In this document: piece by piece, positions 47,142 to 62,707 of the stretch
How the letters are laid out: every line of letters begins with the position of its first letter
Numbering within the stretch: the first letter of the stretch is position 1
Assembly (NCBI GenBank): GCA_030695905.1
Contig: JAUYOL010000007.1
Span: forward strand, 6,604-70,603
DNA: 64,000 nucleotides
Origin: Candidatus Omnitrophota bacterium
GTDB taxonomy: Bacteria > Omnitrophota > Gorgyraeia > 2-01-FULL-45-10
Reading direction: 5' to 3'
Notes under the pieces: generated by a model
The model's input: the letters and a program-made list of their open reading frames with translations, nothing else
Databases searched by the model: none
What the model was told of the DNA's origin: nothing
Made by a program: the position numbers and the translations under genes

Positions 47142-48851
47142 ATGGCGTTGCAGTCTGATCTGATAGGGCAACTTCTGGTAATGAGGGGTCTCATAAATAT
47201 GGAGAGCCTGGAGAGGGCCCTTCTTGAACAGGAGAAGCACAAGGAGCTGTTAGGCGAGACATTGATAAAATTGGGGCTCATAACGAGCGAACAATTTTAT
47301 ACCGCATTGGCAGGACAACTGGGTGTAGAATATATAAAGTTGAAAGACGTGACAATAGACCCTGCCGTAATTAATGAAATACCCGCAAAGTTCGCGTGTT
47401 ATTACGAGCTTATGCCAATAAAAGTAGAAGGCGATATGATAACTGTCGCAATGTCCAATCCGCTCGATATACATACTATAGACGACATAAAACTCCTGCT
47501 TAAAAAAGATATAAAGACGGTGCTTTCCGGTAGGGTTGATATCCTGGATGCTATAAAAAGGTATTATGGTGTGGGCGCTGAAACAATAGAGAAGATGGCG
47601 CCTGACGCGGATCAGGAAAAACTTGTAAGCATTCAATACCAGGAAACCCAGGATCTAATAGAATCCGTCGAAGACGCCTCAATAATAAAATTTGTGAATC
47701 AGGTGCTTTTAGAAGCTTACAGAGACAGGGCAACTGATGTTCATATAGAGCCTTATGAGGACGAGCTTATGGTAAGATACAGGATAGATGGCGTTCTTCA
47801 TGAGACAAAGGTTCCCCCCGCAATAAAGAGTTTTCAGTCGTCCATCATTTCTCGTATAAAAATAATGGCAAATCTTAATATTGCGGAAAGAAGGTTACCC
47901 CAGGATGGCCGTATAAGCATAAAGATAGGCAGTGACAAGATAGACTTGAGAGTGTCTATACTTCCTACGCCATATGGTGAAAGTGTCATGATAAGGATAC
48001 TCTCTTCCAACGTACTCTTCGGCCTTGAAAATCTCGGATTTTTAAAACCCGATCTGGAGATAATGGAAAAGATGATAAAGAAGCCTCACGGCATCATATT
48101 TGTCACCGGCCCGACAGGCAGCGGCAAGACAACGACCCTTTACGCCTCCTTAAGTAAAATAAACGACAGAGACAAGAAGATAATAACTATAGAGGATCCT
48201 ATAGAATATCGCCTTAAAGGTATAATGCAGATGCAGATTCAACCCAAGATTGGCTTTACTTTTGCGAATGCTTTGAGGTCGATGCTCAGGCATGATCCCG
48301 ATGTAATGATGGTGGGCGAGGTAAGAGACTATGAAACCGCGGAAATAACTATAAGGGTCGCGCTGACGGGGCATCTCGTGTTTTCTACCATACATACGAA
48401 TGACGCGGCAGGCGGCGTTACAAGGCTTATTGATATGGGCATAGAGCCGTTTTTGGTGGCATCGGCAGTCGAATGTTTTGTCGCGCAACGTTTGGTTAGG
48501 GTTATATGCAATAGTTGCAAAAAAGAATTAAAACCTGATAAGGAAATACTGAAAGAACTCGGTATTAATAATCCAAGCTTATCGAAGGTAAAACTATACG
48601 AGGGGAAAGGCTGTGAATCATGCAGATTTACCGGATACAAGGGCAGGACAGCCATTTATGAAATAATGGTTATGAGCGAGCCTATGCGGGAGCTCGTTTT
48701 AAAAAGAGCTTCTTCGGATCAGATCAAGAAGAAGGCAGTCGCTTTAGGCATGAGGACGCTGCGTCAAGACGGATGGGAGAAGATAGCTGTGGGCATCACG
48801 ACTCCGAGTGAGGTTATCAGAGTAACACAGGAAGGATCTTCGGAAGAATAG
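47142..48851 (+). CDS. gspE: type II secretion ATPase GspE
   Basis: N-terminal T2SSE_N/MshEN-like domain; Walker A GPTGSGKTTT; Asp box; C-terminal CxxC zinc motif. Confidence 0.9.
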   Translation: MALQSDLIGQLLVMRGLINMESLERALLEQEKHKELLGETLIKLGLITSEQFYTALAGQLGVEYIKLKDVTIDPAVINEIPAKFACYYELMPIKVEGDMITVAMSNPLDIHTIDDIKLLLKKDIKTVLSGRVDILDAIKRYYGVGAETIEKMAPDADQEKLVSIQYQETQDLIESVEDASIIKFVNQVLLEAYRDRATDVHIEPYEDELMVRYRIDGVLHETKVPPAIKSFQSSIISRIKIMANLNIAERRLPQDGRISIKIGSDKIDLRVSILPTPYGESVMIRILSSNVLFGLENLGFLKPDLEIMEKMIKKPHGIIFVTGPTGSGKTTTLYASLSKINDRDKKIITIEDPIEYRLKGIMQMQIQPKIGFTFANALRSMLRHDPDVMMVGEVRDYETAEITIRVALTGHLVFSTIHTNDAAGGVTRLIDMGIEPFLVASAVECFVAQRLVRVICNSCKKELKPDKEILKELGINNPSLSKVKLYEGKGCESCRFTGYKGRTAIYEIMVMSEPMRELVLKRASSDQIKKKAVALGMRTLRQDGWEKIAVGITTPSEVIRVTQEGSSEE

Positions 48852-48854
48852 CTC

Positions 48855-50072
48855 ATGCCCAAATTTATATACGAAGCTAAAACAGGCCCTAATGATGTAA
48901 TAAAAGGGGGCTTGGTTGCCGAATCAAAAAATGCCGCAGTTCAAAAGATAAGCCAGCTCGGATATTTTCTGCTGTCACTGGAAGAGGAGTCGGGCATATC
49001 GAACACATCGGTGAATAACAGGGCTTCTTTCCACGGAAGAATAAATCTTAAAGATATAACTGATTTCACAAGACAATTGTCGGATCTATTGGAGGCGGGC
49101 ATAAATATAGCAAAGGCCCTGGATATATTACAGTCACAGACCGTTAACAAGAGATTGAAGAAAGTCATATCAGATGTAAAGGATTTTTGCGTTAGTGGTA
49201 ATCCTTTGTCCGATGCTTTATCCAGGCATCCGAAAGTATTTCCGAATCTATATGTAAGCATGGTCAGATCCGGGGAGACCGGCGGCATGCTCGAGGGTAT
49301 ATTAAGAAGGCTGTCGGATTTTAATGAAAAACAGCTTGAGATCCAAACAAAGGTGAAGACAGCCCTTGCTTATCCAATATTAATGGCCGTGGTAGGCTTT
49401 GCCACGGTAGCGGTGCTGATAACTTTTGTCATACCCAAGATGGTTGTTATGTTCGCCGATTTTGGGCAGGCACTGCCGATTCCGACCCAAATATTATTAT
49501 TCATCAGCACCGTTGTTAGAAAATACTGGTTAGTGCTTATAGGGCTATGCGCCGCGATCGTAATTATAATTCGTAAAATGTACCGTACATCCGAAGGAAG
49601 GCGCGCGATAGACCGGTTTAAATTGGACTTTCCTTTGACCGGTCAGTTAATAAGAAAAGTGGAAATAGCAAGATTTGCAAGGACGCTCTCTACGCTCCTG
49701 GAAAACGGTGTGCCGATACTCGAGGCCATGAATATTACCCTGGAGACATTGAGTAACACTATTATAAAAGAAGATATAGAAAAGGCGTATCTTTCAGTTA
49801 GGGAGGGGGCAAGCCTTGCCAGTAGCCTTAACTTGGGTAAGATAATGCCTGCCTCCGTTATTAACATGATAGCTGTAGGTGAAGAAGGCGGCCATATGGA
49901 AAAGTCGCTTTTGAAGATAGCGCAGGGCTATGAGAGGGAATCCGATGAGGCGATAAAGATAATGATGTCTTTGTTGGAGCCAGTTATGATACTGACACTC
50001 GGCGGCATAGTCGGCTTTATCGTCGTAGCTATGCTTTTGCCGATATTTGAAATGAATTTTCTTGTAAGATAA
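48855..50072 (+). CDS. gspF: type II secretion inner-membrane platform protein GspF
   Basis: two T2SSF repeats, 3 TM segments, 405 aa. Confidence 0.85.
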   Translation: MPKFIYEAKTGPNDVIKGGLVAESKNAAVQKISQLGYFLLSLEEESGISNTSVNNRASFHGRINLKDITDFTRQLSDLLEAGINIAKALDILQSQTVNKRLKKVISDVKDFCVSGNPLSDALSRHPKVFPNLYVSMVRSGETGGMLEGILRRLSDFNEKQLEIQTKVKTALAYPILMAVVGFATVAVLITFVIPKMVVMFADFGQALPIPTQILLFISTVVRKYWLVLIGLCAAIVIIIRKMYRTSEGRRAIDRFKLDFPLTGQLIRKVEIARFARTLSTLLENGVPILEAMNITLETLSNTIIKEDIEKAYLSVREGASLASSLNLGKIMPASVINMIAVGEEGGHMEKSLLKIAQGYERESDEAIKIMMSLLEPVMILTLGGIVGFIVVAMLLPIFEMNFLVR

Positions 50073-50096
50073 CGTACTTAATTTTGGAGGATTGCC

Positions 50097-50507
50097 ATGA
50101 TATCTAACAAAAAAGGTTTTACGCTGGTTGAATTAATGCTCGTGGTTATAATAATAGGTGTTTTGGTCGCCATGGTGGCTCCAAGGCTCGCCGGAAGATC
50201 CGAACAGGCTAAGATAGCGGCGGCCCGCGCCGACATTAACGCAAATCTGGCATCAGCGCTTGATCTTTATGAAATCGATAACGGCGTTTATCCGGAAAAA
50301 CTGGAAGATCTTACAGTTAAGCCGGCCAGCGCGCCCAATTGGAAAGGGCCATACCTGAAAAAGAAGCCCATAGATCCATGGGGCAATCCTTATGTCTATA
50401 AATATCCCGGCACGCACGGTGATTATGACTTAAGTTCTCTTGGAAGATCCGGCACGGAGGGCCAAGAAGGAGCGGTGAATAGCTGGGACGAAGAGAAGGA
50501 GAAATGA
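50097..50507 (+). CDS. gspG: major pseudopilin GspG
   Basis: prepilin leader KKG|FTLVELMLVV; GspG signature ...KKPIDPWGNPYVYKYP. Confidence 0.85.
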   Translation: MISNKKGFTLVELMLVVIIIGVLVAMVAPRLAGRSEQAKIAAARADINANLASALDLYEIDNGVYPEKLEDLTVKPASAPNWKGPYLKKKPIDPWGNPYVYKYPGTHGDYDLSSLGRSGTEGQEGAVNSWDEEKEK

Positions 50508-50986
50508 TATTCCGCCTGCATCGGAGTTCCGGATTAACATTGATAGAATTAACATTAGTGACGCTCTTGTTATTAGTTATAGTGGGCCTCTCCGTCCCGA
50601 TATTTAAAAAAACCTTTCAGAACTTATCCGCGAAAGACACTTCTTACAATATCTCCAAACTGATAAATTATGCCCAGGAAATGGCTGTTTTGGAGAGAAA
50701 AAATTTTAAAATAATTTTTGACTTCTCCAAAGGCAAATATCAGCTTTTCGAATTAATCACACAGGCGAAAGAGCCTTTGTATACAAAGGCTCAATCCAGG
50801 TTTGGCAAAATGCTTGGTATTCCACAGGGGTTGACGCTTCGCGGCGACAGGAAGGAAATGATTTTTTATCCTGACGGCCATTGTGATGACATGAAAATAT
50901 ATGTAATGTCGAAGAGAAGTGGTTTTTCTATAATAGTTAAAAGATTCGGCAATAAAGTCGAGATAAAAGAGGTCAATATTGAATAG
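50504..50986 (+). CDS. minor pseudopilin (GspH-like)
   Basis: prepilin-type N-terminus SGLTLIELTLVTLLLLVIVG; position after gspG. Confidence 0.55.
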   Translation: MIFRLHRSSGLTLIELTLVTLLLLVIVGLSVPIFKKTFQNLSAKDTSYNISKLINYAQEMAVLERKNFKIIFDFSKGKYQLFELITQAKEPLYTKAQSRFGKMLGIPQGLTLRGDRKEMIFYPDGHCDDMKIYVMSKRSGFSIIVKRFGNKVEIKEVNIE

Positions 50987-51380
50987 CAAAAAAGGATTCC
51001 TTCTTTTAGAAGTAATCGTAAGCATAGCTATAATTACCGGCGCTCTGGTGTTTGTGACGCGCATCTATACTACGGCAAAATACGCGCTGCAGAGGTCGTC
51101 TGTAATGTTCGTATCTTCTTTATTGTTAGAAAGTAAGATATTTGAATTTGAAGAAAAATGTAGCATAGAAAGAGACTTTAAGGACGGTAAAGAATTTACG
51201 GATGACAAAGACTATCGCTGGTCTATAAATAGCGTGGGCCTCGAAAACGATCCTGTCCTGAACCAGAAGCTGGGCCTTAATCTTGTGACTATGGAAGTGT
51301 TGAGGAATAGAGACCGCCAGGAACGGAAGTCTTATGTTACAAAGTATTATTTAACAACCTATCTCTACGATAAGAAATGA
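50979..51380 (+). CDS. minor pseudopilin (GspI-like)
   Basis: KKGFLLLEVIVSIAII prepilin N-terminus; 133 aa. Confidence 0.55.
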   Translation: MNSKKGFLLLEVIVSIAIITGALVFVTRIYTTAKYALQRSSVMFVSSLLLESKIFEFEEKCSIERDFKDGKEFTDDKDYRWSINSVGLENDPVLNQKLGLNLVTMEVLRNRDRQERKSYVTKYYLTTYLYDKK

Positions 51381-52000
51381 ACAGAAGAAAAAATATAGGT
51401 TTTACTTTCATAGAACTGATCATAGCGGTAACGATATTTTCCATAATAGCCGTGAGTATATATTCTGTCTTTAGGTCAGGAGTGAGGCTCTGGTACAGGG
51501 TAAGCCCGATGATACAGGATAACCAGTCTCTAAGGCTGTTTTTTAATACCATAGCATCCGACCTTAAGAATTCGGTCCAATATCTAAAAAATGGAGAAAA
51601 TTTTGAAGGTGACCGCAGAAAAATGTCCTTTATGACGTTGGTTGAAGTGTCAGAACAGGGATTTCCTTCCCGTATGGAGTTGGCAAAAGTTATATATAAG
51701 CTTGATAGTACCGCGAAATCTGTAAGAAAAGGCATCGCTACCAGGTTGGAAGGTTTTGCAGAAGATTACGCCAAGTTTTCCGACATTTTAAATGATATCG
51801 AAGATAAAGATTTCGCGTTTGAGTATTGCTACAAAATGGGGTCCTCGCCTATTGACTACAGCTATGAGTGGAAAAGTGAATGGGACGACAAAGATAAAGA
51901 GAGCGGCAGGATCCCGCGCGGAATAAAGATAAAAGTTCGCGACAATAGCAAGGTCGTGTTTATCCCTACGGGCACACTCGGCGGCGAAGATGCGTTTTAA
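51377..52000 (+). CDS. minor pseudopilin (GspJ-like)
   Basis: IGFTFIELIIAVTIFSIIAV prepilin N-terminus; 207 aa. Confidence 0.55.
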   Translation: MNRRKNIGFTFIELIIAVTIFSIIAVSIYSVFRSGVRLWYRVSPMIQDNQSLRLFFNTIASDLKNSVQYLKNGENFEGDRRKMSFMTLVEVSEQGFPSRMELAKVIYKLDSTAKSVRKGIATRLEGFAEDYAKFSDILNDIEDKDFAFEYCYKMGSSPIDYSYEWKSEWDDKDKESGRIPRGIKIKVRDNSKVVFIPTGTLGGEDAF

Positions 52001-52919
52001 TAAAAAAGGCACCATACTAATAACGAGCTTATGGATCCTGACGATACTATCCATTTTGGCCATAGGCATAGGGTTTCGCGTTTCTATTGAAGTACGGTTG
52101 AGTAAGTATAATATGGACAGGTTAAAAGGTGTACATATTGCAAAGTCCGGCATTTTCAAATCACAGGAGCTTTTATCCAGGGATAACAGTCCATATGATT
52201 CCATACGTCAATGCGGTTTTGTTCTGCCGGCAGAATGTGAAGTGCAGGATGTATTTACCGAAAAATTGGGTGACGGCACATTTATTGTAAGTTACGATGA
52301 AGAGGGAAGAAATTATTACGGGATGATGGACGAGGATAGGAAGATTAATATAAATAAAGCATCACTGGCTGTCTTGCGAAATCTCCTGGTGAATGAAGAA
52401 GTCGCGTTATCCATAATAAATTGGCGAAGTCCGGGCAGTGGTCTGGATGACAATTACTACAAATCACTCACTTCGCCCTATGAGTGTAAGCATGCCGAGT
52501 TTTGCGCAATAGAGGAGCTGTTGCTTGTAAAGGGCGTTACGCCTGAGTTATTTAGCGCGGTTAAAGATTATGTCACTGTGTATGGCGAGGGGAAGGTCAA
52601 TATAAATACTGCAACCAGGCGGGTATTGCTCGCTTTCGGATTAAATGAAACAGCGGTTCAGGGCATAATAGATTACAGGAATGGCATAGATAATATGGCT
52701 GGCACGAAAGATGATTTAGCATTTTATAGCATACCCAGGCAGGGAGAATTTCAGTATCTTAGTAATGATGATGTGGCCCGGCTGGAAAACTTTACAACGG
52801 TATCAAATTATTTTAAAGTTGAGTCGAAAGGCATGATTGACAAGTCAAAGATAAGTGCTAAAATAGCCTGTATAATTAAAAGAGGAGATAAAAAATTAGT
52901 ATCTTATCGGGAATATTAG
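51990..52919 (+). CDS. gspK: minor pseudopilin GspK
   Basis: N-terminal TM, GspK-like size, internal helix-hairpin-helix-like region (INTATRRVL). Confidence 0.65.
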   Translation: MRFNKKGTILITSLWILTILSILAIGIGFRVSIEVRLSKYNMDRLKGVHIAKSGIFKSQELLSRDNSPYDSIRQCGFVLPAECEVQDVFTEKLGDGTFIVSYDEEGRNYYGMMDEDRKININKASLAVLRNLLVNEEVALSIINWRSPGSGLDDNYYKSLTSPYECKHAEFCAIEELLLVKGVTPELFSAVKDYVTVYGEGKVNINTATRRVLLAFGLNETAVQGIIDYRNGIDNMAGTKDDLAFYSIPRQGEFQYLSNDDVARLENFTTVSNYFKVESKGMIDKSKISAKIACIIKRGDKKLVSYREY

Positions 52920-53038
52920 AAAACCTAAAAAGTTTATTCAGGCCGGACAATCGAGCAGTTTCAATAGAGATCTGTGAAGGTTTTGTTAAAGCTGTAGAAG
53001 CTGAAATTTCAAGAGGAGAAAGACGGATAACGAACATA

Positions 53039-54349
53039 GTGAGCAGCTCTGTATCAGGAAAGGATCCTGAAGCGATAGCCGGCCAGATAAAAGACATGTT
53101 TCAATCGATGGTCTCCGCACGTGAACAGGTGCAGTTGAATATACCAAGGCATCTTGTTACCGCTAGATTTCTCAAAATACCCTCTATTAGCGATGAAGAA
53201 ATAGAAAAGATAATGAAGCTTGAATCTATCAAGCACCTGCCTTACACAGATGAGAGTGTTATATACGGATACAGAATAGTAGAAAAGACCGCGGACGGTT
53301 ATTCTAAAGTGCTGCTATCTATAGCGCAGGCCCAGGCCGTGAATAATTTTATAAACATTTTAAAAATGGCCGGTACAGAAAATTTAAAACATTTATCCTT
53401 GAGTTCAGAGGCGCTTTTTTTATGGTATATGCAGGCAATGGAAGGCAAGGAAAAAGAAACCGCTATGGTAGTCAATCTTGACCGGGACCATATAGACGTA
53501 GACGTTATAGAAAAAGACAAGTTAGTATTTACAAGAGGTGTTGCCTTTGATATGAAGGATTCTAAAGCAATTGACAAGATGGCGAGCGAGATAAAGGTGT
53601 CCATAACCAGTTATCAGAAAGAATCTTCTAACGTGATTGGAAGAGTTATATTAACGGGCCAGAAGAATGAATGCGAAGTATTAAAGGCCCTGCTTGTCAA
53701 AGAAGTAAAAGTGCCGGTTGAAATTATAAGTCAGACGGAAAATGTGCCTCTTGGCGAAGATGTGGAAATAGGAAGTGAAAATGTTTCTTTTGCGGAGTCA
53801 TTCGGGCTATTACTGCGGCCGGAAGATATCAAGATAAACCTTATACCTAAGGAAGTTCACGAAGAAACGCGCTTTGTGTTGTCGAAGAATAATTTTATAA
53901 CGGCTATCTTCCTTTCACTGCTTTTATGCGCGATCATTTTCGGTATTACTGTAAAGAAACTGCACGATAAGCATATTTATCTGTCGGTGATGAATACGGA
54001 ATTAAAGAAGATTGAGCCAGATGTTGTTTTCGCGAAAAAAATGGCGAAGGACATAAAAGTTATACAGGAGATGATGGATAGAAAACCGCTGGCCATAGAT
54101 GTAATTTCCGAAGTTTATGCTATAACGCCCGGGGGCATATCTTTAAATATAATCGATTTCGAGAGCGGTAAAACACTTACAGTCAGGGGCAATGCGCCGG
54201 CCTTGAGTGAAGTGCTGAAATATGTGACTTCTATAGAAGGTTCGCCCTATTTTGAAGGCGTTAAGATAAAATATGCCAATAAGCGAATAGTTGAAAACAG
54301 GGAAGCGGTTGATTTTGAAATAGACGCGGTATTGTCTAAATTAAAGTAG
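53039..54349 (+). CDS. GspL-like inner-membrane assembly protein with actin-like (PilM-type) cytoplasmic domain
   Basis: PilM-like N-terminal domain, single TM (FITAIFLSLLLCAIIFGI), periplasmic GspL/PilN-like C-terminus; the true start is probably upstream (see findings). Confidence 0.55.
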   Translation: MSSSVSGKDPEAIAGQIKDMFQSMVSAREQVQLNIPRHLVTARFLKIPSISDEEIEKIMKLESIKHLPYTDESVIYGYRIVEKTADGYSKVLLSIAQAQAVNNFINILKMAGTENLKHLSLSSEALFLWYMQAMEGKEKETAMVVNLDRDHIDVDVIEKDKLVFTRGVAFDMKDSKAIDKMASEIKVSITSYQKESSNVIGRVILTGQKNECEVLKALLVKEVKVPVEIISQTENVPLGEDVEIGSENVSFAESFGLLLRPEDIKINLIPKEVHEETRFVLSKNNFITAIFLSLLLCAIIFGITVKKLHDKHIYLSVMNTELKKIEPDVVFAKKMAKDIKVIQEMMDRKPLAIDVISEVYAITPGGISLNIIDFESGKTLTVRGNAPALSEVLKYVTSIEGSPYFEGVKIKYANKRIVENREAVDFEIDAVLSKLK

Positions 54350-54358
54350 GTATTCGGT

Positions 54359-54898
54359 ATGATGTTTATAAATAATTTAAATAAAAGAGAAAAGACCCTT
54401 GCGATTGTAGCCGTTTCGGTAGTTTCTATATCTATCGTGTACGCTCTTCTGATAGTGCCGCTATTCGCAAAGTGGATAGACCTGAATAATCAGATTAGGT
54501 CAAAAGTGAATATGTTAGAGTCAGGGTTCAAGATGCTCGCAAATCAAAAACAGCTTAATGAGGAATATGCTAAGGTGTCAAAATATGCCAAACACATGAA
54601 GAGTGATGAGCAGGCGGTTGCGGATACACTTGCCTATATTGAAACTCTTTCAAGGAATGACGCATGTCTTATAGTAAATATAAAACCTGTCGGCACAACG
54701 AAAGCGGACCACTACAAAGAGATATTGATAGATATTTCCGCGGAGGCAAATATGAGTCAATTCTCCAAATTTTTATATGATATAGAAAATCCAAGAGATA
54801 CGTTGATAAGCGTAAAGAGGTTTGCTTTAAGCCCTAAATCAGGACAAGCCGATATTCTAAAAGGCACCTTCCTTATAAGCAAAATATTGTTAGATTAG
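54359..54898 (+). CDS. GspM/PilO-like bitopic assembly protein
   Basis: N-terminal TM, coiled-coil, 179 aa; position in cluster. Confidence 0.45.
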   Translation: MMFINNLNKREKTLAIVAVSVVSISIVYALLIVPLFAKWIDLNNQIRSKVNMLESGFKMLANQKQLNEEYAKVSKYAKHMKSDEQAVADTLAYIETLSRNDACLIVNIKPVGTTKADHYKEILIDISAEANMSQFSKFLYDIENPRDTLISVKRFALSPKSGQADILKGTFLISKILLD

Positions 54899-54963
54899 CC
54901 AGCCTTATTCTTAAACCAGATAATATACTTAACCAATTGACAAACAAGCATGTTATGATATAC

Positions 54964-55004
54964 TCTCTATATAGAGAGTTGTGTATAGCTCTCTACCCAG
55001 AGAG
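54964..55004 (+). promoter_or_regulatory. two palindromic operator-like sites (CTCTCTATATAGAGAG and CTCTCTACCCAGAGAG) overlapping the promoter and RBS of the MerR-family gene
   Basis: perfect 16-bp palindrome at 54964-54979 directly after the TTGACA(54937)-N16-TATACT promoter; related imperfect palindrome at 54989-55004, 5 nt before the ATG. Confidence 0.55.
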
Positions 55005-55009
55005 TTAAT

Positions 55010-55252
55010 ATGGAAAAGAAAGATATTTATCTAATAAAGGACCTCGCAAGGCTTGCAGGTATATCCATCTATACCATAAAATACTATATCAAATTAGGGC
55101 TTATAAAAGAGATGGGCAGGAGCCCGGAAACCCGCTTTAGGTATTTTGATGATTTGACAGTAGGAGATCTGAAGAAGATAATAGCCTACAAAAGAGAAAA
55201 AATGTCTTTAAGCAGTATCTTGGATATCTTAAAAGAAAAGAAGGCGAGATGA
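55010..55252 (+). CDS. MerR-family HTH transcriptional regulator (80 aa)
   Basis: IKDLARLAGISIYTIKYYIKLGLI MerR-type HTH. Confidence 0.7.
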   Translation: MEKKDIYLIKDLARLAGISIYTIKYYIKLGLIKEMGRSPETRFRYFDDLTVGDLKKIIAYKREKMSLSSILDILKEKKAR

Positions 55253-56064
55253 GTTATTACGAAGTTCTCGGTTTAAATAAAGAACCTTTTTCTACCAGCC
55301 CTGATCCCGTATTTTTTTATCGTTCATCATCCCACAATGCCGCATTGCAGAGATTGGAGATACTAGTTCGTCTTAAAAGAGGCCTGGGCCTTATACTGGG
55401 AGATGTTGGCGTAGGAAAAACAACGATGTCCCGAGCGCTCTTACAGAATTTTGCCAATGAGCAGGATTATATATTTCACATAATCCTGGACCCTTCTTAC
55501 AAATCAGAGTTCCAATTTTTATCGAGCCTCGCAAAGATGTTTGGTATAAAACCTAATTCGCGTTCCACGCTTGATTACAGAGAAGAGATCGAAAGGTATC
55601 TTTTTAAAAAAGGTGTGGATGAGCATAAGACCGTTGTTTTGTTGATAGATGAGGGACAAAAGTTGTCTACGCCGTTTCTTGAAATATTGAGGACGGTCTT
55701 AAACTATGAAACAAATGAATATAAGCTTTTGCAGCTGGTCATAGTAGCACAGATGGAACTCTTGCCCAGGATAAAAAAAATAAAGAATTTTTATGACAGA
55801 ATAGGCTTGAAGTACATAATAAATGCCTTAGATGAAGAAGAGACGAAAAAGATGATATTCTTCAGGTTGAAGCAGGCGGGCCTCGAGGATCCAGAAAGAT
55901 TATTCACCGACGGCTCTCTCAAATTAATATTCGGATATAGCCAGGGATATCCCAGAAAGACGGCTATGGTATGCCATGATGCGCTTGAATTTCTCGTGAT
56001 GAATGGCAAGGGCGTGGTGGATGAATCGGTTGTTAATGAAGTTATAAAAAAGGTGTCTATTTAG
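55249..56064 (+). CDS. ExeA/GspA-like AAA ATPase (T2SS secretin-assembly factor)
   Basis: GLGLILGDVGVGKTT Walker A; ExeA-like size; in T2SS cluster. Confidence 0.7.
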   Translation: MSYYEVLGLNKEPFSTSPDPVFFYRSSSHNAALQRLEILVRLKRGLGLILGDVGVGKTTMSRALLQNFANEQDYIFHIILDPSYKSEFQFLSSLAKMFGIKPNSRSTLDYREEIERYLFKKGVDEHKTVVLLIDEGQKLSTPFLEILRTVLNYETNEYKLLQLVIVAQMELLPRIKKIKNFYDRIGLKYIINALDEEETKKMIFFRLKQAGLEDPERLFTDGSLKLIFGYSQGYPRKTAMVCHDALEFLVMNGKGVVDESVVNEVIKKVSI

Positions 56065-56742
56065 ATGCAGCGAGATATATCTCCGGAAGAAAAATTATTA
56101 TCAATAATAAAGGGTAATCACGATAAGGTTCCCGCTGAAAAAGGCACAGGCAAGCCTGATGCAAAGGACATGGGGATCAAGCCCGTTAGCCCCAGTGGTA
56201 AGATAGATGATTATGTGTCGATTATTCTTAAGAGTAGTTTTTTTAAAAACAATATATTTGATCCTGGCATTCTGAAGGTATTTAACAGGTGCATGGCAAT
56301 AATCCTGGTTATTGCTGTTCTATATTTTATCGGGGATATATTTTTTGTGCGCGCATCCGGCAAGGCCAATTCTATAATAGCGGGCTTTTCCAGCAGCGTG
56401 ATGCCGGCGCAGCTCGCACCGAAAACCGCGAAGATTGAAGCAAGGAATTATTCTTATTATTCAAATAAAGTTGCCGGAAAGAAGATATTTGGGGCAGGCA
56501 CTTATGTCGCTGCTGAATTTCAGTCAGGGGCCCAGTCAGCAGGTGAGCAGTCGGAAAGCAATATAGGGCTTGTTGGAATAATACCGGGGGCCAGGGCCCA
56601 GGCCATAATAGAAGATAGAAAAGCCCAGAAGACGTATTATCTTATGAAAGGGCAGTCAGTTAACGATATCAGCGTAGAAGATATAGATAGGGATAAAGTT
56701 ACGATTGAGTATAAAGGGAAGAGAATGAGCCTTTTCCTGTAG
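56065..56742 (+). CDS. bitopic GspC/GspB/PilP-like protein
   Basis: cytoplasmic N-terminus, one TM, periplasmic C-terminal beta domain (...QSVNDISVEDIDRDKVTIEYKGKRMSLFL). Confidence 0.4.
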   Translation: MQRDISPEEKLLSIIKGNHDKVPAEKGTGKPDAKDMGIKPVSPSGKIDDYVSIILKSSFFKNNIFDPGILKVFNRCMAIILVIAVLYFIGDIFFVRASGKANSIIAGFSSSVMPAQLAPKTAKIEARNYSYYSNKVAGKKIFGAGTYVAAEFQSGAQSAGEQSESNIGLVGIIPGARAQAIIEDRKAQKTYYLMKGQSVNDISVEDIDRDKVTIEYKGKRMSLFL

Positions 56743-56752: not shown

Positions 56753-58744
56753 ATGAAAAAACAAATTATAGCCGCATTTACCCTGGTTTTATTTTTAAGT
56801 ATGGCTTGCGACCCAATATTGCAGATGATTGCCGAAGCTCAGGATTCTGCCATGCCACCCACATCCGAGCTTGCTGGTATTCAATCAGATCAGGAATCGG
56901 GCAAAGTATCTTTGGATCTTAAAGGCATGGATATAGTCGAAGTTATAAAGATGCTTGCCACCAAGGGAAACCTTAATGTTGTGCTTGGCACCGATGTGAA
57001 GGGGAAAGTGACCATATTTTTAAAAAGTGTCAATCTTATGGACGCGCTCGACATTATTCTTATCGCGAACAATCTGGCATATGACAGGCGTGGCGACATA
57101 ATATACATAATGAGCCAGAGGGATTATGAAAGAATGTATGGCGAAAAATATGCCGAGAAGAAAGAGGCCATGATATTCCGGCTTAAATATGCCAAGGCTG
57201 CAGATATCGGTAAGGCATTGAACCAGATAAAGACAAAGGTAGGAAAAATTATCATCGATGAAGGGTCAAATACAATCGTTGCTATGGACAATCCCTCCGC
57301 AATCGTGCGGATGAATGAAACAATTCAGAGTATAGATACTCCAACCGTCACCAAGATATTTGAGCTTAGGTACGCCAAGGCCACGGATATGAAAGATAAG
57401 GTCGTAGAAAGCCTTACAAAAGGTATGGGTACTATTCAGATAGATGAGAGGACAAACAAGATAGCCATTACCGATCTTGAGAAAAAGCTCCAGGACATAG
57501 AGAAGATGATCGTAGCGTTCGATGATAAATCACAGCAGGTGCTTATCGAGGCTAAAATACTGCAGATTACGCTGAGCGACCAGCTGAAGCTTGGTGTCGA
57601 CTGGACCAGCGTTATAAAACAGTTGCAGAAGGAGATAAATTTAAAAAGCGCATTTCAGCTGGCTGCCTTTAATGCATTCGGGCCTCCGGGCGCGGAAATG
57701 CTTATAGGAAGCTTGGGAGACTCCGGCGATGTAAACATAATGATACAGGTATTGAAGACTATAGGAGATACCAATCTTCTTTCAAGTCCGCGGATAACCG
57801 CCCTGAATAATCAGGAAGCAAAGATATTGATAGGCACTTCCCAGCCCTATGCGACAAATACGGTGACGCAGACTACGGGGACTGCCACAACAGGCACCAA
57901 TATAAGTTTTCTTGATATTGGTGTGAAATTATACGTAACCCCCACGATAAATAAAGATGGTTTTATAACCATGAAGATAAGGCCTGAGGTAAGCTCAACA
58001 AACAGTAATTACACATATGGTACGCCCGCTACAACTATACCGGTAGTCCAGACTACTCAGGCTGAGACGAGTGTCAGTATCAAGGACGGTGCTACGATAA
58101 TCATAGGGGGCTTAATAAAAGATCAGAGGACCGAAACGGTAAATAAAATCCCAATATTAGGCGATCTGCCGATTATTAAATATGCTTTCAGTAATACGGA
58201 TGTCAAGGTGGAAAAACAGGAACTCGTTATATTTTTAACCCCTCATATAATAAGTGGTGAATCGGATTATATGGACCCGCCAAAAACACCGCCTATAGAC
58301 GAAGGTAGATTTACTGTACCGGAAAAACCGGCTTTTGAAAGAAGGGATGAAGTTTCCATGAAGCCCGGCATGTTCAAAGGCGCAAAAAAATACCAAAGCG
58401 AAGAAGATTCCTCTATGGGTCCGGTAAAAAAATCCACTATGGAGACGGTAAGCATAGCGTCAACGTCACAGGAATATTATTATTCTGTCAAAAACAAAAT
58501 AATAGAGCATATATCTTTACCTAAAGACGCAAAATATTCTCAGATCAAAGGCAAGGTCAAATTATCGTTTTTCCTGACGCCTGCGGGTAAAGTTACAAGG
58601 GGTCCGGATATACTTGAGTCGTCAAATCATGAATTGGACGATATAGCGCTTAGGGCCGTAAAGAGGGCCGGTTCATTTTCGGTCTTTCCGGAAGATATGG
58701 GTAGAGGAGAAAAACGTTTTGTTATGGATATAGCCTTTGAATAA
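56753..58744 (+). CDS. gspD: T2SS secretin GspD with C-terminal TonB_C-like domain
   Basis: signal peptide; N0/N1-type domains; secretin core (GGLIKDQRTETVNKIPILGDLPIIKYAF...ELVIFLTPHII); last ~90 aa match the TonB/TolA C-terminal pattern. Confidence 0.85.
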   Translation: MKKQIIAAFTLVLFLSMACDPILQMIAEAQDSAMPPTSELAGIQSDQESGKVSLDLKGMDIVEVIKMLATKGNLNVVLGTDVKGKVTIFLKSVNLMDALDIILIANNLAYDRRGDIIYIMSQRDYERMYGEKYAEKKEAMIFRLKYAKAADIGKALNQIKTKVGKIIIDEGSNTIVAMDNPSAIVRMNETIQSIDTPTVTKIFELRYAKATDMKDKVVESLTKGMGTIQIDERTNKIAITDLEKKLQDIEKMIVAFDDKSQQVLIEAKILQITLSDQLKLGVDWTSVIKQLQKEINLKSAFQLAAFNAFGPPGAEMLIGSLGDSGDVNIMIQVLKTIGDTNLLSSPRITALNNQEAKILIGTSQPYATNTVTQTTGTATTGTNISFLDIGVKLYVTPTINKDGFITMKIRPEVSSTNSNYTYGTPATTIPVVQTTQAETSVSIKDGATIIIGGLIKDQRTETVNKIPILGDLPIIKYAFSNTDVKVEKQELVIFLTPHIISGESDYMDPPKTPPIDEGRFTVPEKPAFERRDEVSMKPGMFKGAKKYQSEEDSSMGPVKKSTMETVSIASTSQEYYYSVKNKIIEHISLPKDAKYSQIKGKVKLSFFLTPAGKVTRGPDILESSNHELDDIALRAVKRAGSFSVFPEDMGRGEKRFVMDIAFE

Positions 58745-58776: not shown

Positions 58777-59313
58777 TTGATGAATAAAGACGACAGAACT
58801 TTTTTAATCGTGTCATTTATGGTCATCATATTATTACTATTCGCCGTGGGCTCTCTCTATATGATGAAAGAAAATGAGAAAGAGAAGAGAGTGGGCCTGC
58901 AAAGGCAGGTGGACGCGCTTGTGATTGAAAAGCAGAACTTAGAGTTGAGGCTAAAAGAGTCAGAAGTCAGCAATGCGCAGGCCTCGTCCACCATTAAATT
59001 TCAGGAAGAAAGGATAAGTTTCCTGTCCAGGGAGCTTGAGGATGAGAAATCGTCCAGCGGGAAAAATATTGTTAAGATTCAAGAAAAAGAGTTTGAAATA
59101 CAGAATCTCAAGGCCAGAATAGAAGATATCAAATCGGAAAAACAGGAAACTCAAAGAAATTCGGAAAAACTTAACGAAGAGTATCTGAATATTAAGTTTC
59201 AGATGGAAAATCTGATTAAGACGAAAGAAGAGTTAGAGAAAAGGGCAAAAGAACTTGTTGATAAAGAAGGTGTTTCTCTCGGCACTGTAGTGATCAAGAG
59301 GCCAAATAATTAA
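58777..59313 (+). CDS. membrane-anchored coiled-coil protein
   Basis: N-terminal TM then heptad-rich segment; no family assignment. Confidence 0.4.
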   Translation: MMNKDDRTFLIVSFMVIILLLFAVGSLYMMKENEKEKRVGLQRQVDALVIEKQNLELRLKESEVSNAQASSTIKFQEERISFLSRELEDEKSSSGKNIVKIQEKEFEIQNLKARIEDIKSEKQETQRNSEKLNEEYLNIKFQMENLIKTKEELEKRAKELVDKEGVSLGTVVIKRPNN

Positions 59314-59336: not shown

Positions 59337-59684
59337 ATGAAGATAAAAAATATATGGCTTACAGCGGTTTTTATATGCTTATTGCCGGTATTATCCCAAT
59401 GTGATGAAGGGGGGTATAATAAAATAGGAGATGTTTCTGTTCCTGATAGTATGGAGGTTATTAAGGAGGGAGATGTGAATGTCTTGGTACCTAAAGGGGG
59501 ACAGTTAAAGCAGGAAAGCAGCTTCCTGGTAAAAGAGGTACCGGATGAGTACGCCTCGCGTAAATTTATAGCGATGGAAGGCTATTTTAATGAGATCCGA
59601 ATGGAGCTTGAAGCGCAGGGGAAAGAACTAAAAGAATTAAGAGAAATCGTAGATAGGATTGCGCAAGAAAAAATAGCCAAGTGA
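59337..59684 (+). CDS. hypothetical secreted/lipoprotein
   Basis: signal peptide ...LPVLSQC; 115 aa. Confidence 0.35.
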   Translation: MKIKNIWLTAVFICLLPVLSQCDEGGYNKIGDVSVPDSMEVIKEGDVNVLVPKGGQLKQESSFLVKEVPDEYASRKFIAMEGYFNEIRMELEAQGKELKELREIVDRIAQEKIAK

Positions 59685-59703: not shown

Positions 59704-60291
59704 CTATTCTAACCTGGTTAGATTTGCCAGGTTAAAAGGGAAAATATACGAATAAGTTTTTTGTCGTTCCTCATCGGTTACACCTAAGTTGATATATACT
59801 TCAGATTTATCTATCAAGTCATTTTTTTCTCCAGATAGGTAAGTACGTGCTCCTGAATAATTCCAGTCAGTCGAGTTTTTGCATAGACCTGCTCTTACAG
59901 GGTTTAAATCTATATAACGCATTACTGCAAGCAATTGAGTGTCATTTTTTACCAATTCTCCATAAAAGCGATCTTCCCAAAAATGTCCCTTTCTTTCATA
60001 ATGCTCATTATGCCATCGCGCATACCATCTATTGATGGAGTGCATTATTGCAGAAATATTTTCAGTATCAACAAGTTTAATAAGCAGGTGCGTATGGTTA
60101 TGCATAATGACATAATCGTAAAGCAAGAAACCATATTTAATTTTGCACTTTTTAAGAATACTAAGATACTTAACAAAAGCATAGTCGTCGGTGATGAGGT
60201 TTTGTTTATTATTACATCGCGTTGTGATATGGCATATTGCATTTTTAAAGTTGAACCGCTCACGTTTTCCATGAGTTATCGTTACAGCCAT
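59704..60291 (-). CDS. REP-associated tyrosine transposase (RayT-like, COG1943)
   Basis: as above; the last 11 codons are encoded by the REP sequence itself. Confidence 0.75.
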   Translation of the reverse strand: MAVTITHGKRERFNFKNAICHITTRCNNKQNLITDDYAFVKYLSILKKCKIKYGFLLYDYVIMHNHTHLLIKLVDTENISAIMHSINRWYARWHNEHYERKGHFWEDRFYGELVKNDTQLLAVMRYIDLNPVRAGLCKNSTDWNYSGARTYLSGEKNDLIDKSEVYINLGVTDEERQKTYSYIFPFNLANLTRLE

Positions 60292-60334
60292 AAGTTACCC
60301 CTCCATTCTAACCTGGTTAGACTTGTCAGGTTAG
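59704..60334 (-). mobile_element. RAYT-type (REP-associated tyrosine transposase, IS200/IS605 Y1 family) gene flanked by REP-like palindromes
   Basis: ORF 59704-60291 with HNHTHLL HuH motif and RYIDLNPVRAGL...DWNYSG; flanking TTCTAACCTGGTTAGAtTTGcCAGGTTA (59707-59734) and TTCTAACCTGGTTAGAcTTGtCAGGTTAG (60306-60334). Confidence 0.75.
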
Positions 60335-61872: not shown

Positions 61873-61895
61873 TCCTTGACTGTTAGCCCGCAGGC

Positions 61896-62273: not shown

Positions 62274-62277
62274 AAAA

Positions 62278-62541: not shown

Positions 62542-62567
62542 ATTTTCACCCCCTTTCCATACGTTTT

Positions 62568-62614
62568 ATCCCTACTATATAAGACGTAAAAAGGGTCGAA
62601 ATTGTTGCAAACTT
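62568..62614 (-). repeat. 47-bp promoter-like motif, copy 1 (minus strand TTTGCAACAATTTCGACCCTTTTTACGTCTTATATAGTAGG)
   Basis: ~90% identical to copy 2 at 63213-63258; lies upstream of spoVG. Confidence 0.8.
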
Positions 62615-62707
62615 TTTTAAAATATTTTTAATTTAGGTTGTAACTGATTGTATTGCAATGGTTTAGCAAAGCAGTGTTTGCGGGATGGTAATCAATATTG
62701 GTGTGTT

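What the first reader, a model, noticed from the sequence alone, without database searches (positions are those of the whole stretch)
58475..58744. Secretin carrying a C-terminal TonB_C/TolA-like domain
After the secretin core (...ELVIFLTPHIISGE) and a Pro-rich linker, the last ~90 aa (YYYSVKNKIIEHISLPKDAKYSQIKGKVKLSFFLTPAGKVTRGPDILESSNHELDDIALRAVKRAGSFSVFP) follow the TonB C-terminal domain pattern (G.V.V.F.I...G.V.....SG...LD.AAL.AV......P). Secretins normally end with an S-domain that binds a pilotin. A TonB_C-like module on the periplasmic face of GspD is unusual. It could anchor the secretin to peptidoglycan or the inner membrane, or dock cargo or partner proteins.
Basis: partly seen in the sequence, partly recalled or inferred. 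Interest (0 to 1): 0.55.

Follow-up and report, generated by a model that had tools for sequence, protein, structure and literature searches.

The report
Secretin ending in a TonB-type domain
The outer-membrane pore protein (secretin) of this Omnitrophota type II secretion system really does end in a TonB/TolA-type docking domain, and this undescribed architecture is the rule for two different secretin classes in that phylum, which points to a lineage-specific way of assembling or anchoring these pores.

Summary
Observation confirmed. ORF 56753-58744 (663 aa) is a secretin: signal peptide, N0/STN, two N domains and a secretin core ending at residue 500. Then come a 70-residue unstructured stretch and a C-terminal TonB_C domain (residues 572-663).

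- **Domain evidence:** it passes the curated Pfam and NCBIfam cut-offs. AlphaFold2 gives an alpha-beta-beta-alpha-beta fold at pLDDT 88-94. The 26 best Foldseek PDB hits are all TonB, HasB, FusB or TolA C-terminal domains.
- **No S-domain:** no S-domain helices are predicted.
- **Context:** the gene closes a complete T2SS operon (GspE-F-G-H-I-J-K, PilM/N, PilO/M, MerR, AAA ATPase, GspC).
- **Not an artefact:** 120 of 120 nearest relatives (47-100% identity, named ones Omnitrophota) have the same terminal domain.
- **Second class:** Tad/CpaC-type secretins of Omnitrophota also end in one or two TonB_C domains (120 of 120).
- **Annotation:** public records name these proteins 'TonB family protein'. 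They lack TonB's membrane anchor and motor context. I found no paper describing the fusion.

Best reading (inferred): a periplasmic docking module at the position where other secretins bind pilotins. It would serve secretin assembly or anchoring by beta-strand addition to an envelope partner, not cargo docking. The partner is unknown. New variant of a known kind; moderate interest.

The parts
56753..58744 (+). Secretin::TonB_C fusion gene (663 aa plus stop). Identical to a public protein named 'TonB family protein [Candidatus Omnitrophota bacterium]'.
   Evidence: ORF. Pfam Secretin 168.2 bits, Secretin_N 70.7, TonB_C 37.8. Exact match P0001.
56753..56839 (+). Signal peptide (residues 1 to about 29, probable cleavage after AEA). 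Cys19 is not conserved, so this is not a lipoprotein 'self-piloting' secretin.
   Evidence: N-termini of 40 homologues. Helix 2-18 followed by disorder.
56903..57139 (+). N0 / STN domain (residues about 51-129).
   Evidence: Pfam STN 28.3 bits (cut-off 28.4) and GspD N0 21.4 bits. Folded in the AF2 model. Foldseek matches to XcpQ and GspD N-terminal structures.
57164..57520 (+). Two ring-building N domains (residues about 138-194 and 198-256).
   Evidence: Pfam Secretin_N, two stretches. AF2 secondary structure.
57536..58252 (+). Secretin core (residues about 262-500), ending ...ELVIFLTPHII.
   Evidence: Pfam Secretin 334-500, E 1.6e-49. AF2 strands 262-500. Foldseek PulD 6hcg at E 1.3e-24, then GspD and ExeD.
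58253..58381 (+). Conserved post-core segment (residues 501-543, consensus xGExDYLExPxTPPIGExxFTxPEKPxFERRxxVxMxPGxFKE). Unstructured in monomer models. Specific to the T2SS-type family. Possibly an S-domain analogue that orders only in the multimer or on a partner.
   Evidence: Conservation (T521 and R531 invariant in alignment A1). Coil with pLDDT 42-69. No counterpart in the Tad-type spacer.
58382..58465 (+). Variable, charged, disordered spacer (residues about 544-571).
   Evidence: Lowest conservation and length variation. pLDDT below 50. Core-to-domain distance 55-84 aa across the family.
58466..58741 (+). TonB/TolA-type C-terminal domain (residues 572-663): helix 572-585, strand 600-608, strand 614-623, helix 626-639, strand 654-662. 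The protein ends right after the last strand.
   Evidence: profiles. (AF2, pLDDT 81-94). (Foldseek: top 26 hits are TonB, HasB, FusB or TolA CTDs).
56065..56742 (+). GspC-like protein (T2SSC homology region) directly upstream of the secretin.
   Evidence: Pfam T2SSC 32.6 bits, cut-off 27. Same position in L001 and L006.
47142..56064 (+). Rest of the T2SS operon: GspE, GspF, GspG, H-, I- and J-like pseudopilins, GspK, PilM-PilN fusion, PilO/GspM-like protein, MerR regulator, AAA_22 (ExeA/MshM-like) ATPase.
   Evidence: ORFs. Pfam. Conserved order in L001, L005 and L006.
58777..59313 (+). Conserved downstream gene (178 aa): N-terminal TM helix, coiled coil of about 130 aa, invariant C-terminal strand-like motif VSLG(T/A)(V/I)(V/I)(I/V) at nt 59272-59295. 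Speculative partner of the TonB_C domain. Membrane topology is uncertain.
   Evidence: Alignment A4. The motif occurs once per T2SS-type locus and always at this gene's C-terminus. Flank charges.
59337..59684 (+). Small secreted protein (115 aa), conserved only in the closer loci. Its Cys is not conserved, so it is not a lipoprotein pilotin.
   Evidence: Homologues in L001 and L004 lack the Cys. Absent at this position in L005 and L006.

Best explanation
**Shown.**
- The gene encodes the outer-membrane secretin of an Omnitrophota type II secretion system.
- After the secretin core there is no helical S-domain. Instead the protein has a conserved unstructured segment, a variable spacer (core-to-domain distance 55-84 residues) and a genuine TonB/TolA-type C-terminal domain that ends the protein.
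- This architecture is fixed in the whole family.
- It recurs on the unrelated Tad/CpaC-type secretins of the same phylum.

**Inferred.**
- T2SS secretin C-termini are periplasmic, and they emerge on the outside of the barrel just under the outer membrane. An assembled pore of 12-15 subunits would therefore carry a ring of tethered TonB-type domains in the periplasm.
- The one established activity of this fold is to capture a short peptide of a partner by beta-strand addition to its last strand.
- The C-terminus is where T2SS, T3SS and Tad secretins normally engage their pilotins.
- I therefore propose that the domain is a built-in docking module. It would bind an envelope component and so support targeting, assembly or anchoring of the secretin, replacing or recruiting the pilotin or GspAB-type helpers used elsewhere.
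- It is not a TonB energy transducer, and it is probably not a cargo receptor.
- The partner is unidentified.
For: - **Domain identity:** Pfam and NCBIfam matches above the curated cut-offs. Profile hit to TonB-CTD in the PDB. AF2 fold at pLDDT 88-94. Foldseek top 26 hits all TonB/TolA-type CTDs.
- **Real and under selection:** 120 of 120 T2SS-type relatives at 47-100% identity, from independent assemblies, have exactly one terminal copy. Invariant and near-invariant positions lie inside the domain.
- **System identity:** complete T2SS operon with GspC next to the secretin. Synteny kept at 48-62% identity. Best structural matches are PulD, GspD and ExeD.
- **No S-domain, no lipobox:**
- **Generic role favoured over cargo-specific role:** Tad-type secretins (T2SS-T3SS_pil_N + Secretin) in RcpC/TadZ-TadA clusters carry one or two TonB_C domains in 120 of 120 relatives, and every taxon-named one is Omnitrophota. 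Their spacer is unconserved while the domain is highly conserved.
- **C-terminus as pilotin site:** S-domain with PulS/OutS (PMC9239104). [quoted passage not shown]
- **Periplasmic C-termini:** T2S and T3S secretin C-termini are not surface exposed (PMC4453517).
- **Binding mode:** TolA/TonB CTDs bind their targets by beta-strand addition (PMC12204202).
- **Precedent:** envelope-anchoring modules fused to secretins, such as SPOR on LspD (PMC9239104).
- **No pilotin seen nearby:** no recognisable pilotin gene in the loci examined.
Against: - No binding partner was identified and no interaction was tested.
- Whether these genomes lack pilotins, TonB-dependent transporters, ExbBD or Tol-Pal was not determined. 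Only 64 kb of this genome and flanks of up to 10 kb elsewhere were seen.
- The T2SS-type family has an additional conserved post-core segment (residues 501-543). That segment could itself be the pilotin or assembly determinant, leaving the TonB_C domain with a different job.
- The T2SS-type and Tad-type domains are not each other's closest relatives in the profile ranking. A shared function across the two classes is therefore an assumption.
- Periplasmic location is inferred from other T2SS secretins and was not shown for this protein.
Confidence: 0.5

Rival explanations
1. Direct peptidoglycan anchor. The TonB_C domains bind the cell wall itself, not a protein strand, and fix the secretin barrel in the peptidoglycan layer. 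This would be the role played by AMIN domains on PilQ, SPOR on Legionella LspD, or GspA/GspB elsewhere.
For: - Secretins cross the PG layer and use varied PG-binding helpers or fused domains (PMC9239104).
- Omnitrophota have a complete PG pathway (preprint 10.64898/2026.06.07.730766).
- The window encodes MurJ, a Mur ligase and a LysM-YkuD transpeptidase.
- The operon's ExeA/MshM-like ATPase is only 271 aa and has no PG-binding domain, so that function is vacant.
- The module sits on two secretin classes, which fits a generic target such as PG.
- From my own recollection, not checked here: PG association has been reported for the E. coli TonB C-terminus.
Against: - The documented activity of this fold is beta-strand addition to peptides (PMC12204202).
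- No PG-binding family (LysM, SPOR, AMIN, OmpA_C, PG_binding_1) matches the tail.
- The one candidate precedent I checked, SjdR, turned out not to contain a TonB-type C-terminal domain (PMC8262864).
Confidence: 0.2
2. 'Inverted TonB' tether specific to the T2SS. The conserved membrane-anchored coiled-coil protein encoded directly downstream (58777-59313) spans the periplasm. It donates its invariant C-terminal strand (VSLGTVVIK) to the secretin's TonB_C domain and so links the outer-membrane pore to the inner membrane, as GspB/OutB does in Dickeya.
For: - The gene always follows the secretin in T2SS-type loci, including one where the protein is only 31% identical.
- The C-terminal motif is the most conserved part of the protein: V166, S167, L168 and G169 are invariant.
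- The motif occurs exactly once per locus, 1-5 residues from that protein's end.
- Its alternating hydrophobic pattern resembles TonB-box and TolA-box strands (resemblance only).
- GspB/OutB shows that inner-membrane-to-secretin scaffolds exist (PMC9239104).
Against: - K+R counts flanking the TM helix (N side 1-2, C side 3-5) favour a cytoplasmic coiled coil under the positive-inside rule.
- The motif is absent from Tad-type loci, which carry the same domain.
- No complex was modelled or measured.
- Gene adjacency alone is weak evidence for an interaction.
Confidence: 0.12
3. Cargo or substrate docking. The tethered domains capture secreted proteins, for example the large glycoside hydrolases encoded upstream, and feed them to the channel.
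For: - Large putative secreted enzymes lie immediately upstream: Glycoamylase-domain proteins of 1255 and 2216 aa and a CBM30 protein.
- An Omnitrophota preprint finds T2SS genes and 'TonB C-terminal domain' genes flanking giant proteins.
- The fold does bind unstructured peptides.
Against: - The same module sits on Tad secretins, which pass a pilus and not folded exoproteins.
- In solved T2SS secretins the C-terminus lies on the outside of the barrel near the outer membrane, while substrates enter from the periplasmic vestibule via GspC and N0 (established structural knowledge, not tested here).
- The operon has its own GspC.
Confidence: 0.07
4. Surface-exposed domain. The C-terminus threads to the cell surface, as reported for T4P secretins, and the domain acts in contact with host or prey cells of these episymbiotic bacteria.
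For: - BfpB and PilQ C-termini were reported as extracellular (PMC4453517).
- The core scores slightly better on the PilQ model than on the GspD model.
- A host-dependent lifestyle is proposed for the phylum.
Against: - In the same study, T2S and T3S secretin C-termini behaved as periplasmic.
- Operon context and best structural matches are T2SS.
- All characterised TonB/TolA C-terminal domains act in the periplasm.
- A folded 90-residue domain would have to cross the outer membrane.
Confidence: 0.04
5. Artefact: an assembly or frameshift error fused a secretin gene to a neighbouring tonB gene.
For: Public records name the protein 'TonB family protein'.
Against: - One uninterrupted ORF.
- 120 of 120 relatives from NCBI, JGI, ENA and Logan assemblies have the same architecture.
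- The tail lacks any TonB N-terminal anchor.
Confidence: 0.01

Closest known systems
T2SS secretins GspD / PulD / ExeD
   Same: - Signal peptide, N0 domain, ring-building N domains and the secretin core.
- Encoded at the end of a gspC...gspK-type operon next to GspC.
- Best Foldseek matches are PulD 6hcg, GspD 5zdh and ExeD 6i1x.
   Different: - No helical S-domain and no recognisable pilotin nearby.
- Only N0 plus two N domains.
- Below the curated GspD equivalog score.
- A C-terminal TonB/TolA-type domain follows a spacer of about 70 residues.
TonB / HasB / FusB C-terminal domain (PF03544) and TolA domain III
   Same: - Same alpha-beta-beta-alpha-beta fold.
- Same sequence signature: (Y/L)P...G.V.v.F.l...G.v, SS(G/N)..LD, AV, and a terminal strand.
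- Lies after a disordered, partly Pro-rich spacer.
   Different: - It is attached to an outer-membrane pore, not to an inner-membrane anchor that couples to ExbBD or TolQR.
- It therefore cannot transmit proton-motive force in the known way.
- Up to 12-15 copies per complex.
Secretins with fused envelope-binding modules (PilQ AMIN domains; Legionella LspD SPOR-like domain)
   Same: A secretin polypeptide that carries its own periplasmic anchoring or docking domain, rather than relying only on accessory proteins (PMC9239104).
   Different: - Those modules are N-terminal and bind peptidoglycan.
- This one is C-terminal and belongs to a peptide-binding fold.
Pilotin-binding C-termini (S-domain with PulS or AspS; RcpA tail with TadD)
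   Same: Same position in the protein. The post-core region is disordered in isolation, as S-domains are.
   Different: In those systems the secretin supplies the peptide and the pilotin supplies the fold. Here the secretin carries the folded peptide-binding module, so the polarity of the interaction would be reversed.
Tad/CpaC-type secretin::TonB_C fusions of Omnitrophota
   Same: Same phylum, same C-terminal placement, same domain family, and the same 'TonB family protein' naming in public records.
   Different: - Different secretin class (T2SS-T3SS_pil_N N-terminus, Tad operon).
- One or two copies of the domain.
- Unconserved spacer without the FERR segment.
- The domain is closer to the canonical TonB_C consensus.

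Membership tests
Secretin superfamily (PF00263) | C-terminal secretin core domain | tested here: met
   Pfam Secretin 168.2 bits against a cut-off of 27.5, residues 334-500. Foldseek matches to PulD, GspD, ExeD, InvG and PilQ at E 1e-24 to 1e-17.
Secretin superfamily (PF00263) | Periplasmic N0 and ring-building N domains, plus a signal peptide | tested here: met
   Secretin_N 70.7 bits, two stretches. STN 28.3 bits (cut-off 28.4, borderline). N0 plus two N domains are folded in the AF2 model.
Secretin superfamily (PF00263) | Forms a 12-15-mer gated outer-membrane channel | not testable with these tools
   Needs expression with SDS-resistant multimer analysis, or cryo-EM.
GspD, T2SS secretin (NCBIfam TIGR02517 equivalog) | Score above the curated equivalog cut-off | tested here: not met
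   243.6 bits against a cut-off of 351.35. The PilQ subfamily model scores 272.1 against 284.35.
GspD, T2SS secretin (NCBIfam TIGR02517 equivalog) | Encoded with GspC, E, F, G, H-K and assembly-platform genes | tested here: met
   Conserved in L001, L005 and L006.
GspD, T2SS secretin (NCBIfam TIGR02517 equivalog) | C-terminal helical S-domain that binds a pilotin | tested here: not met
   No helix is predicted between residues 501 and 571 in the tail model or the full-length model. No pilotin family was detected in the flanking genes.
TonB_C domain (PF03544 / TIGR01352) | Profile score above the curated cut-offs | tested here: met
   PF03544 37.8 bits (42.7 for the tail alone) against 24.6. 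TIGR01352 28.6 bits (33.4 for the tail alone) against 27.1.
TonB_C domain (PF03544 / TIGR01352) | alpha-beta-beta-alpha-beta fold with a terminal edge strand | tested here: met
   AF2 pLDDT 88-94. Foldseek top 26 hits are TonB, HasB, FusB or TolA CTDs, including TonB in complex with BtuB and with FhuA.
TonB_C domain (PF03544 / TIGR01352) | Binds a partner peptide (TonB box) by beta-strand addition | not testable with these tools
Needs AF-Multimer, NMR or ITC.
TonB energy transducer (the name given in public records) | N-terminal membrane anchor with the SHLS-type motif that engages ExbB/ExbD | tested here: not met
   The N-terminus is a cleavable signal peptide followed by N0. There is no His in residues 1-30.
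TonB energy transducer (the name given in public records) | Genomic association with exbB/exbD or TonB-dependent transporters | tested here: not met
   None among the genes scanned in the window or in the loci viewed. The rest of the genome was not seen.
TolA C-terminal domain (PF13103 TonB_2 / PF06519) | Profile score above the cut-off | tested here: inconclusive
   TonB_2 20.4 bits against a cut-off of 22 for this protein. Many family members carry a precomputed PF13103 hit. TolA III structures appear at Foldseek ranks 10-26.
Lipoprotein ('self-piloting') secretins such as HxcQ and BfpB | Conserved lipobox Cys at the end of the signal peptide | tested here: not met
   Cys19 is replaced in many homologues.

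The most novel reading that the evidence does not exclude
Omnitrophota have replaced the pilotin/S-domain logic of secretin biogenesis with a reversed TonB-type connection. The outer-membrane pore carries the TonB/TolA C-terminal domain. An envelope partner supplies the 'box' strand; for the T2SS this would be the inner-membrane coiled-coil protein with the invariant VSLGTVVIK C-terminus. The result would be a physical, possibly force-bearing or gating, link between the inner membrane and the secretin, used by both T2SS and Tad machines across the phylum.
Probability: 0.12. Interest if true: 0.8.

Novelty: new variant of a known kind. Interest (0 to 1): 0.55.

Why it matters
- **Secretin assembly.** Secretins are the outer-membrane gates of T2SS, T3SS, type IV and Tad pili and filamentous phage. 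How they reach and stay in the outer membrane is solved differently in each lineage: pilotins, GspAB, AMIN or SPOR domains. A TonB/TolA-type domain fixed on two secretin classes of one phylum would be a further, undescribed solution.
- **TonB topology.** It places a domain known only on inner-membrane force transducers onto an outer-membrane protein. That reverses the usual topology of the TonB-box interaction.
- **Biology of the phylum.** Omnitrophota are ultra-small, largely uncultured and probably host-dependent. Their T2SS and Tad systems lie next to giant proteins and secreted glycoside hydrolases, so the assembly of these pores bears on how they interact with hosts.
- **Annotation.** Hundreds of secretins are filed in public databases as 'TonB family protein'. 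This hides the secretin from surveys of secretion systems and inflates counts of TonB.

Tried and rejected
- **Tail-only homologue search**: returned only three short fragments, because the word index favours full-length sharers. Uninformative.
A six-sequence alignment then gave only four loci. So taxonomic breadth rests mainly on names attached to protein hits.
- **Small downstream protein (59337-59684) as a lipoprotein pilotin:** rejected. Its Cys is absent in L001 and L004, and the gene is missing in more distant loci.
- **Upstream 564-aa TPR protein as a PilF/TadD-like pilotin:** rejected as a lipoprotein. It has a signal peptidase I-type signal and no Cys.
- **Lipidated self-piloting secretin:** rejected.
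- **Intramolecular beta-augmentation of the conserved 501-543 segment onto the domain:** no strand is predicted there in either AF2 model. Not supported, but a monomer model cannot exclude binding between subunits.
- **SjdR as a precedent for a PG-related TonB_C protein:** rejected. The paper states that SjdR lacks the TonB-type periplasmic domain.
- **Literature searches for a described secretin-TonB_C fusion**: nothing found in the library searched. Subscription-only papers are not covered.
- **Whether Omnitrophota lack TonB-dependent transporters, ExbBD or Tol-Pal:** could not be determined. The 2026 preprint only says the TBDR/sus-type import architecture is absent around the giant-protein loci of its genome collection.
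Full report
**1. The observation**

The window holds an uninterrupted ORF at 56753-58744 on the + strand, 663 aa.

Pfam assigns these domains:
- STN, residues 74-121
- Secretin_N, two stretches
- Secretin, residues 334-500, E 1.6e-49
- TonB_C, residues 586-650

TonB_C scores 37.8 bits on the full protein and 42.7 bits (E 8.1e-11) on the isolated tail, against a curated cut-off of 24.6. NCBIfam TIGR01352 (tonB_Cterm) also passes: 28.6 bits on the full protein and 33.4 on the tail, cut-off 27.1. TonB_2 (the TolA-like model) falls just short, 20.4 against 22.

The tail alone finds H. pylori TonB-CTD in the PDB only weakly (E 0.017). A profile of 40 family tails raises this to E 1.1e-5 and adds HasB.

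**2. Structure**

An AlphaFold2 model of residues 501-663, built on that 40-sequence alignment, folds residues 572-663 confidently: 10-residue block means of pLDDT are mostly 88-94, with one block at 80. The order is helix, strand, strand, helix, strand. Residues 501-570 stay coil, with block means of 42-69.

Foldseek against the PDB returns 26 consecutive hits that are all TonB, HasB, FusB or TolA C-terminal domains. They include TonB bound to BtuB, FhuA and FoxA. The best is 5lw8, with TM 0.74 normalised to the target and rmsd 2.5 A. Below these hits the probabilities collapse.

A full-length model built on 49 sequences shows the following:
- N0, residues 51-129
- two N domains, residues 138-194 and 198-256
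- the secretin core, ending at residue 500
- about 70 disordered residues with no helices
- the TonB-type domain

The best structural neighbours of the full-length model are the T2SS secretins PulD, GspD and ExeD (E 1e-24 to 1e-23), followed by InvG and PilQ.

**3. Context**

The secretin is the last large gene of a complete T2SS-type operon:
- GspE, 47142-48851
- GspF
- GspG (T2SSG, 101 bits)
- three minor pseudopilin-like genes
- GspK
- a PilM-PilN fusion
- a PilO/GspM-like gene
- a MerR regulator
- a 271-aa AAA_22 ATPase of the ExeA/MshM type, without a PG-binding domain
- a GspC-like protein (T2SSC, 32.6 bits), directly upstream of the secretin

Upstream of the operon lie two large putative secreted glycoside hydrolases and a CBM30 protein, which are plausible cargo.

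The rest of the window is housekeeping. It includes markers of a diderm with a cell wall: LptE, Lnt, a BamD-like protein, MurJ, a Mur ligase and a LysM-YkuD transpeptidase. None of the genes scanned in the window matches a Tol, ExbBD or TonB-dependent transporter family.

**4. Organism and distribution**

The exact protein is in NCBI as 'MAG: TonB family protein [Candidatus Omnitrophota bacterium]'. The 120 best homologues (47-100% identity) come from NCBI, JGI, ENA and Logan assemblies. Those with an organism name are all Omnitrophota/Omnitrophica.

A local HMM of the domain finds exactly one copy at the extreme C-terminus in 120 of 120. The core-to-domain distance is 55-84 residues, median 67. 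Operon order is conserved in loci at 48-62% identity. The fusion is therefore real, old within the lineage, and maintained.

Mean identity to the query by region, across 117 full-length relatives:

| Region | Identity |
|---|---|
| Secretin core | 0.76 |
| N0 | 0.74 |
| TonB-type domain | 0.47 |
| Residues 505-575 (conserved segment and spacer) | 0.39 |

That last region contains a strongly conserved segment, residues 501-543, with consensus xGExDYLExPxTPPIGExxFTxPEKPxFERR...PGxFKE. T521 and R531 are invariant in the 40-tail alignment. The signal-peptide Cys is not conserved, so this is not a lipoprotein secretin.

**5. A second secretin class with the same tail**

An exhaustive HMMER search of 1.84 billion representative proteins with the tail profile gave 10,362 hits at E <= 1e-3, 344 at <= 1e-10, and only 8 at <= 1e-30.

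Among the best 150, 29 contain a secretin core. Eight of those cores are very divergent. Pfam shows them to be T2SS-T3SS_pil_N + Secretin + two TonB_C domains, that is, Tad/CpaC-RcpA-type secretins. Their loci encode RcpC, a TadZ-TadA fusion, DUF192 and arrays of small pilin-like genes.

A homologue search with one of them (P0144) returned 651 relatives at E <= 1e-10. All 120 listed carry PF13629 + PF00263 + PF03544. Every one whose organism is named more precisely than 'bacterium' is Omnitrophota, including one on a 1.23-Mb contig. They have one (102) or two (18) copies of the domain. Their spacer is unconserved, while the domain is highly conserved and close to the canonical TonB_C consensus.

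Thus two different secretin classes of one phylum end in this module. One contig carrying the T2SS-type fusion is labelled 'uncultured Planctomycetia'. I could not resolve whether that is a mislabel.

**6. What it is not**

It is not a TonB protein, despite the public name. The N-terminus is a signal peptide followed by N0. There is no membrane anchor with the His-containing motif that engages ExbB/ExbD, and no exbBD or TBDT genes are nearby.

It does not meet NCBI's GspD equivalog threshold, and it lacks the S-domain. It is not an assembly artefact.

**7. How it most likely works (inferred)**

These points are established:
- T2S and T3S secretin C-termini are not surface exposed (PMC4453517).
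- The S-domain is disordered until its pilotin binds, and it staples subunits on the outside of the barrel under the outer membrane (PMC9239104).
- The last four residues of the Tad secretin RcpA bind the pilotin TadD, and this is essential for assembly (PMC10499894).
- TolA and TonB C-terminal domains bind their targets by beta-strand addition (PMC12204202).

Putting these together, the assembled pore would display a ring of tethered peptide-capturing domains in the periplasm. They would sit at the position where other secretins engage assembly factors. Because T2SS and Tad secretins pass different things, the shared module argues for a generic role in targeting, assembly or anchoring, and not for cargo selection. 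I put this at about 0.5.

A direct peptidoglycan anchor is the main rival (0.2). It fits the vacant PG-binding role in this operon and the intact PG pathway of the phylum. It does not fit the known biochemistry of the fold.

**8. A lead on the partner**

The gene right after the secretin (58777-59313) is conserved in every T2SS-type locus that extends past the secretin. It encodes a TM helix, a coiled coil of about 130 residues, and a C-terminus whose motif VSLG(T/A)(V/I)(V/I)(I/V) is invariant even at 31% overall identity. The motif occurs once per locus and only there.

It could be the 'box' strand for the secretin's domain, giving an inverted TonB arrangement and a link between inner and outer membrane like GspB/OutB. 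Two things count against this. The positive-inside rule favours a cytoplasmic coiled coil, and the Tad loci lack such a gene. With no structure jobs left I could not model the complex. I give this 0.12.

**9. Novelty**

Seven literature searches and reads found no description of a secretin-TonB_C fusion. A 2026 Omnitrophota preprint lists 'TonB C-terminal domain' genes beside T2SS and giant-protein loci without recognising them as secretins.

Automated annotation does see the domain, so the sequences are not new. The architecture, its fixation in two secretin classes and its implications appear to be undescribed. I rate it a new variant of a known kind, interest 0.55.

The functional reading is untested. 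The decisive steps are complex prediction, a genome census of pilotins and Ton/Tol components, and deletion or binding experiments.

Noticed in passing
L007 307-2238; L008 4924-6969 (and proteins P0144, P0146, P0150, P0159, P0168, P0169, P0214, P0233, P0276-P0393): Tad/CpaC-type secretins (T2SS-T3SS_pil_N + Secretin) of Omnitrophota also end in one or two TonB_C domains. They sit in RcpC / TadZ-TadA / DUF192 / pilin clusters. All 120 listed relatives have the fusion.
   Followed up: yes
window 58777-59313 (motif at 59272-59295): The conserved gene after the secretin encodes a TM helix, a long coiled coil and an invariant C-terminal VSLGTVVIK-like strand. The motif occurs once per T2SS-type locus. 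It is a possible partner of the TonB_C domain, but the topology signal is ambiguous or unfavourable.
   Followed up: partly
window 58253-58381: Strongly conserved but unstructured segment right after the secretin core (…FTxPEKPxFERR…PGxFKE). It is present only in the T2SS-type family. It may be an S-domain analogue that orders in the multimer.
   Followed up: partly
window 59704-63874 versus L001 7393-10648: The block sigma-70 / anti-sigma-like / SpoVG / YraN / YifB is inverted in the window relative to the related genome. An IS200-like Y1 transposase (59704-60291, minus strand) sits at the junction in the window only.
   Followed up: no
window 32597-36364, 38447-45097, 45030-46394: Two large putative secreted glycoside hydrolases (Glycoamylase PF10091; the 2216-aa one also has FG-GAP, TIG, PKD and InlB-B-repeat domains) and a CBM30 protein lie directly upstream of the T2SS operon. 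They are likely cargo. The listed start of the CBM30 ORF overlaps the end of the giant gene by 68 nt, so its true start is probably further downstream.
   Followed up: partly
window 53039-54349 and 55010-56064: PilM and PilN are fused in one 436-aa protein that serves as the GspL-like platform component. A MerR regulator and a 271-aa ExeA/MshM-like AAA_22 ATPase without a PG-binding domain are inserted between the PilO-like gene and GspC. This pair is absent from the more distant locus L005.
   Followed up: partly
P0001, P0014, P0022, P0027, P0040, P0144, P0292 and others (public records): Secretins of both classes are named 'TonB family protein' or 'TonB C-terminal domain-containing protein' in NCBI and JGI annotation. 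This is a systematic misnaming that hides secretins from surveys of secretion systems.
   Followed up: yes
P0126/P0275, P0132, P0133, P0136, P0140, P0141, P0145, P0147: Non-secretin proteins with 2-5 tandem TonB_C/TonB_2 domains are among the closest relatives of the tail. Named examples come from Omnitrophota, Deltaproteobacteria and Melainabacteria. Their function is unknown.
   Followed up: partly
L003 (CAZHPY010000008.1): A contig labelled 'uncultured Planctomycetia bacterium' carries the same T2SS-type fusion (63% identity in the tail). It is either a taxonomic mislabel of a co-assembly bin or an occurrence outside Omnitrophota.
   Followed up: no
window 30798-32492 and 18105-19757: A 564-aa periplasmic TPR protein with a signal peptidase I-type signal and no lipobox, and a 550-aa BamD-like (YfiO) TPR protein next to LptE. 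Neither looks like a classical pilotin.
   Followed up: partly
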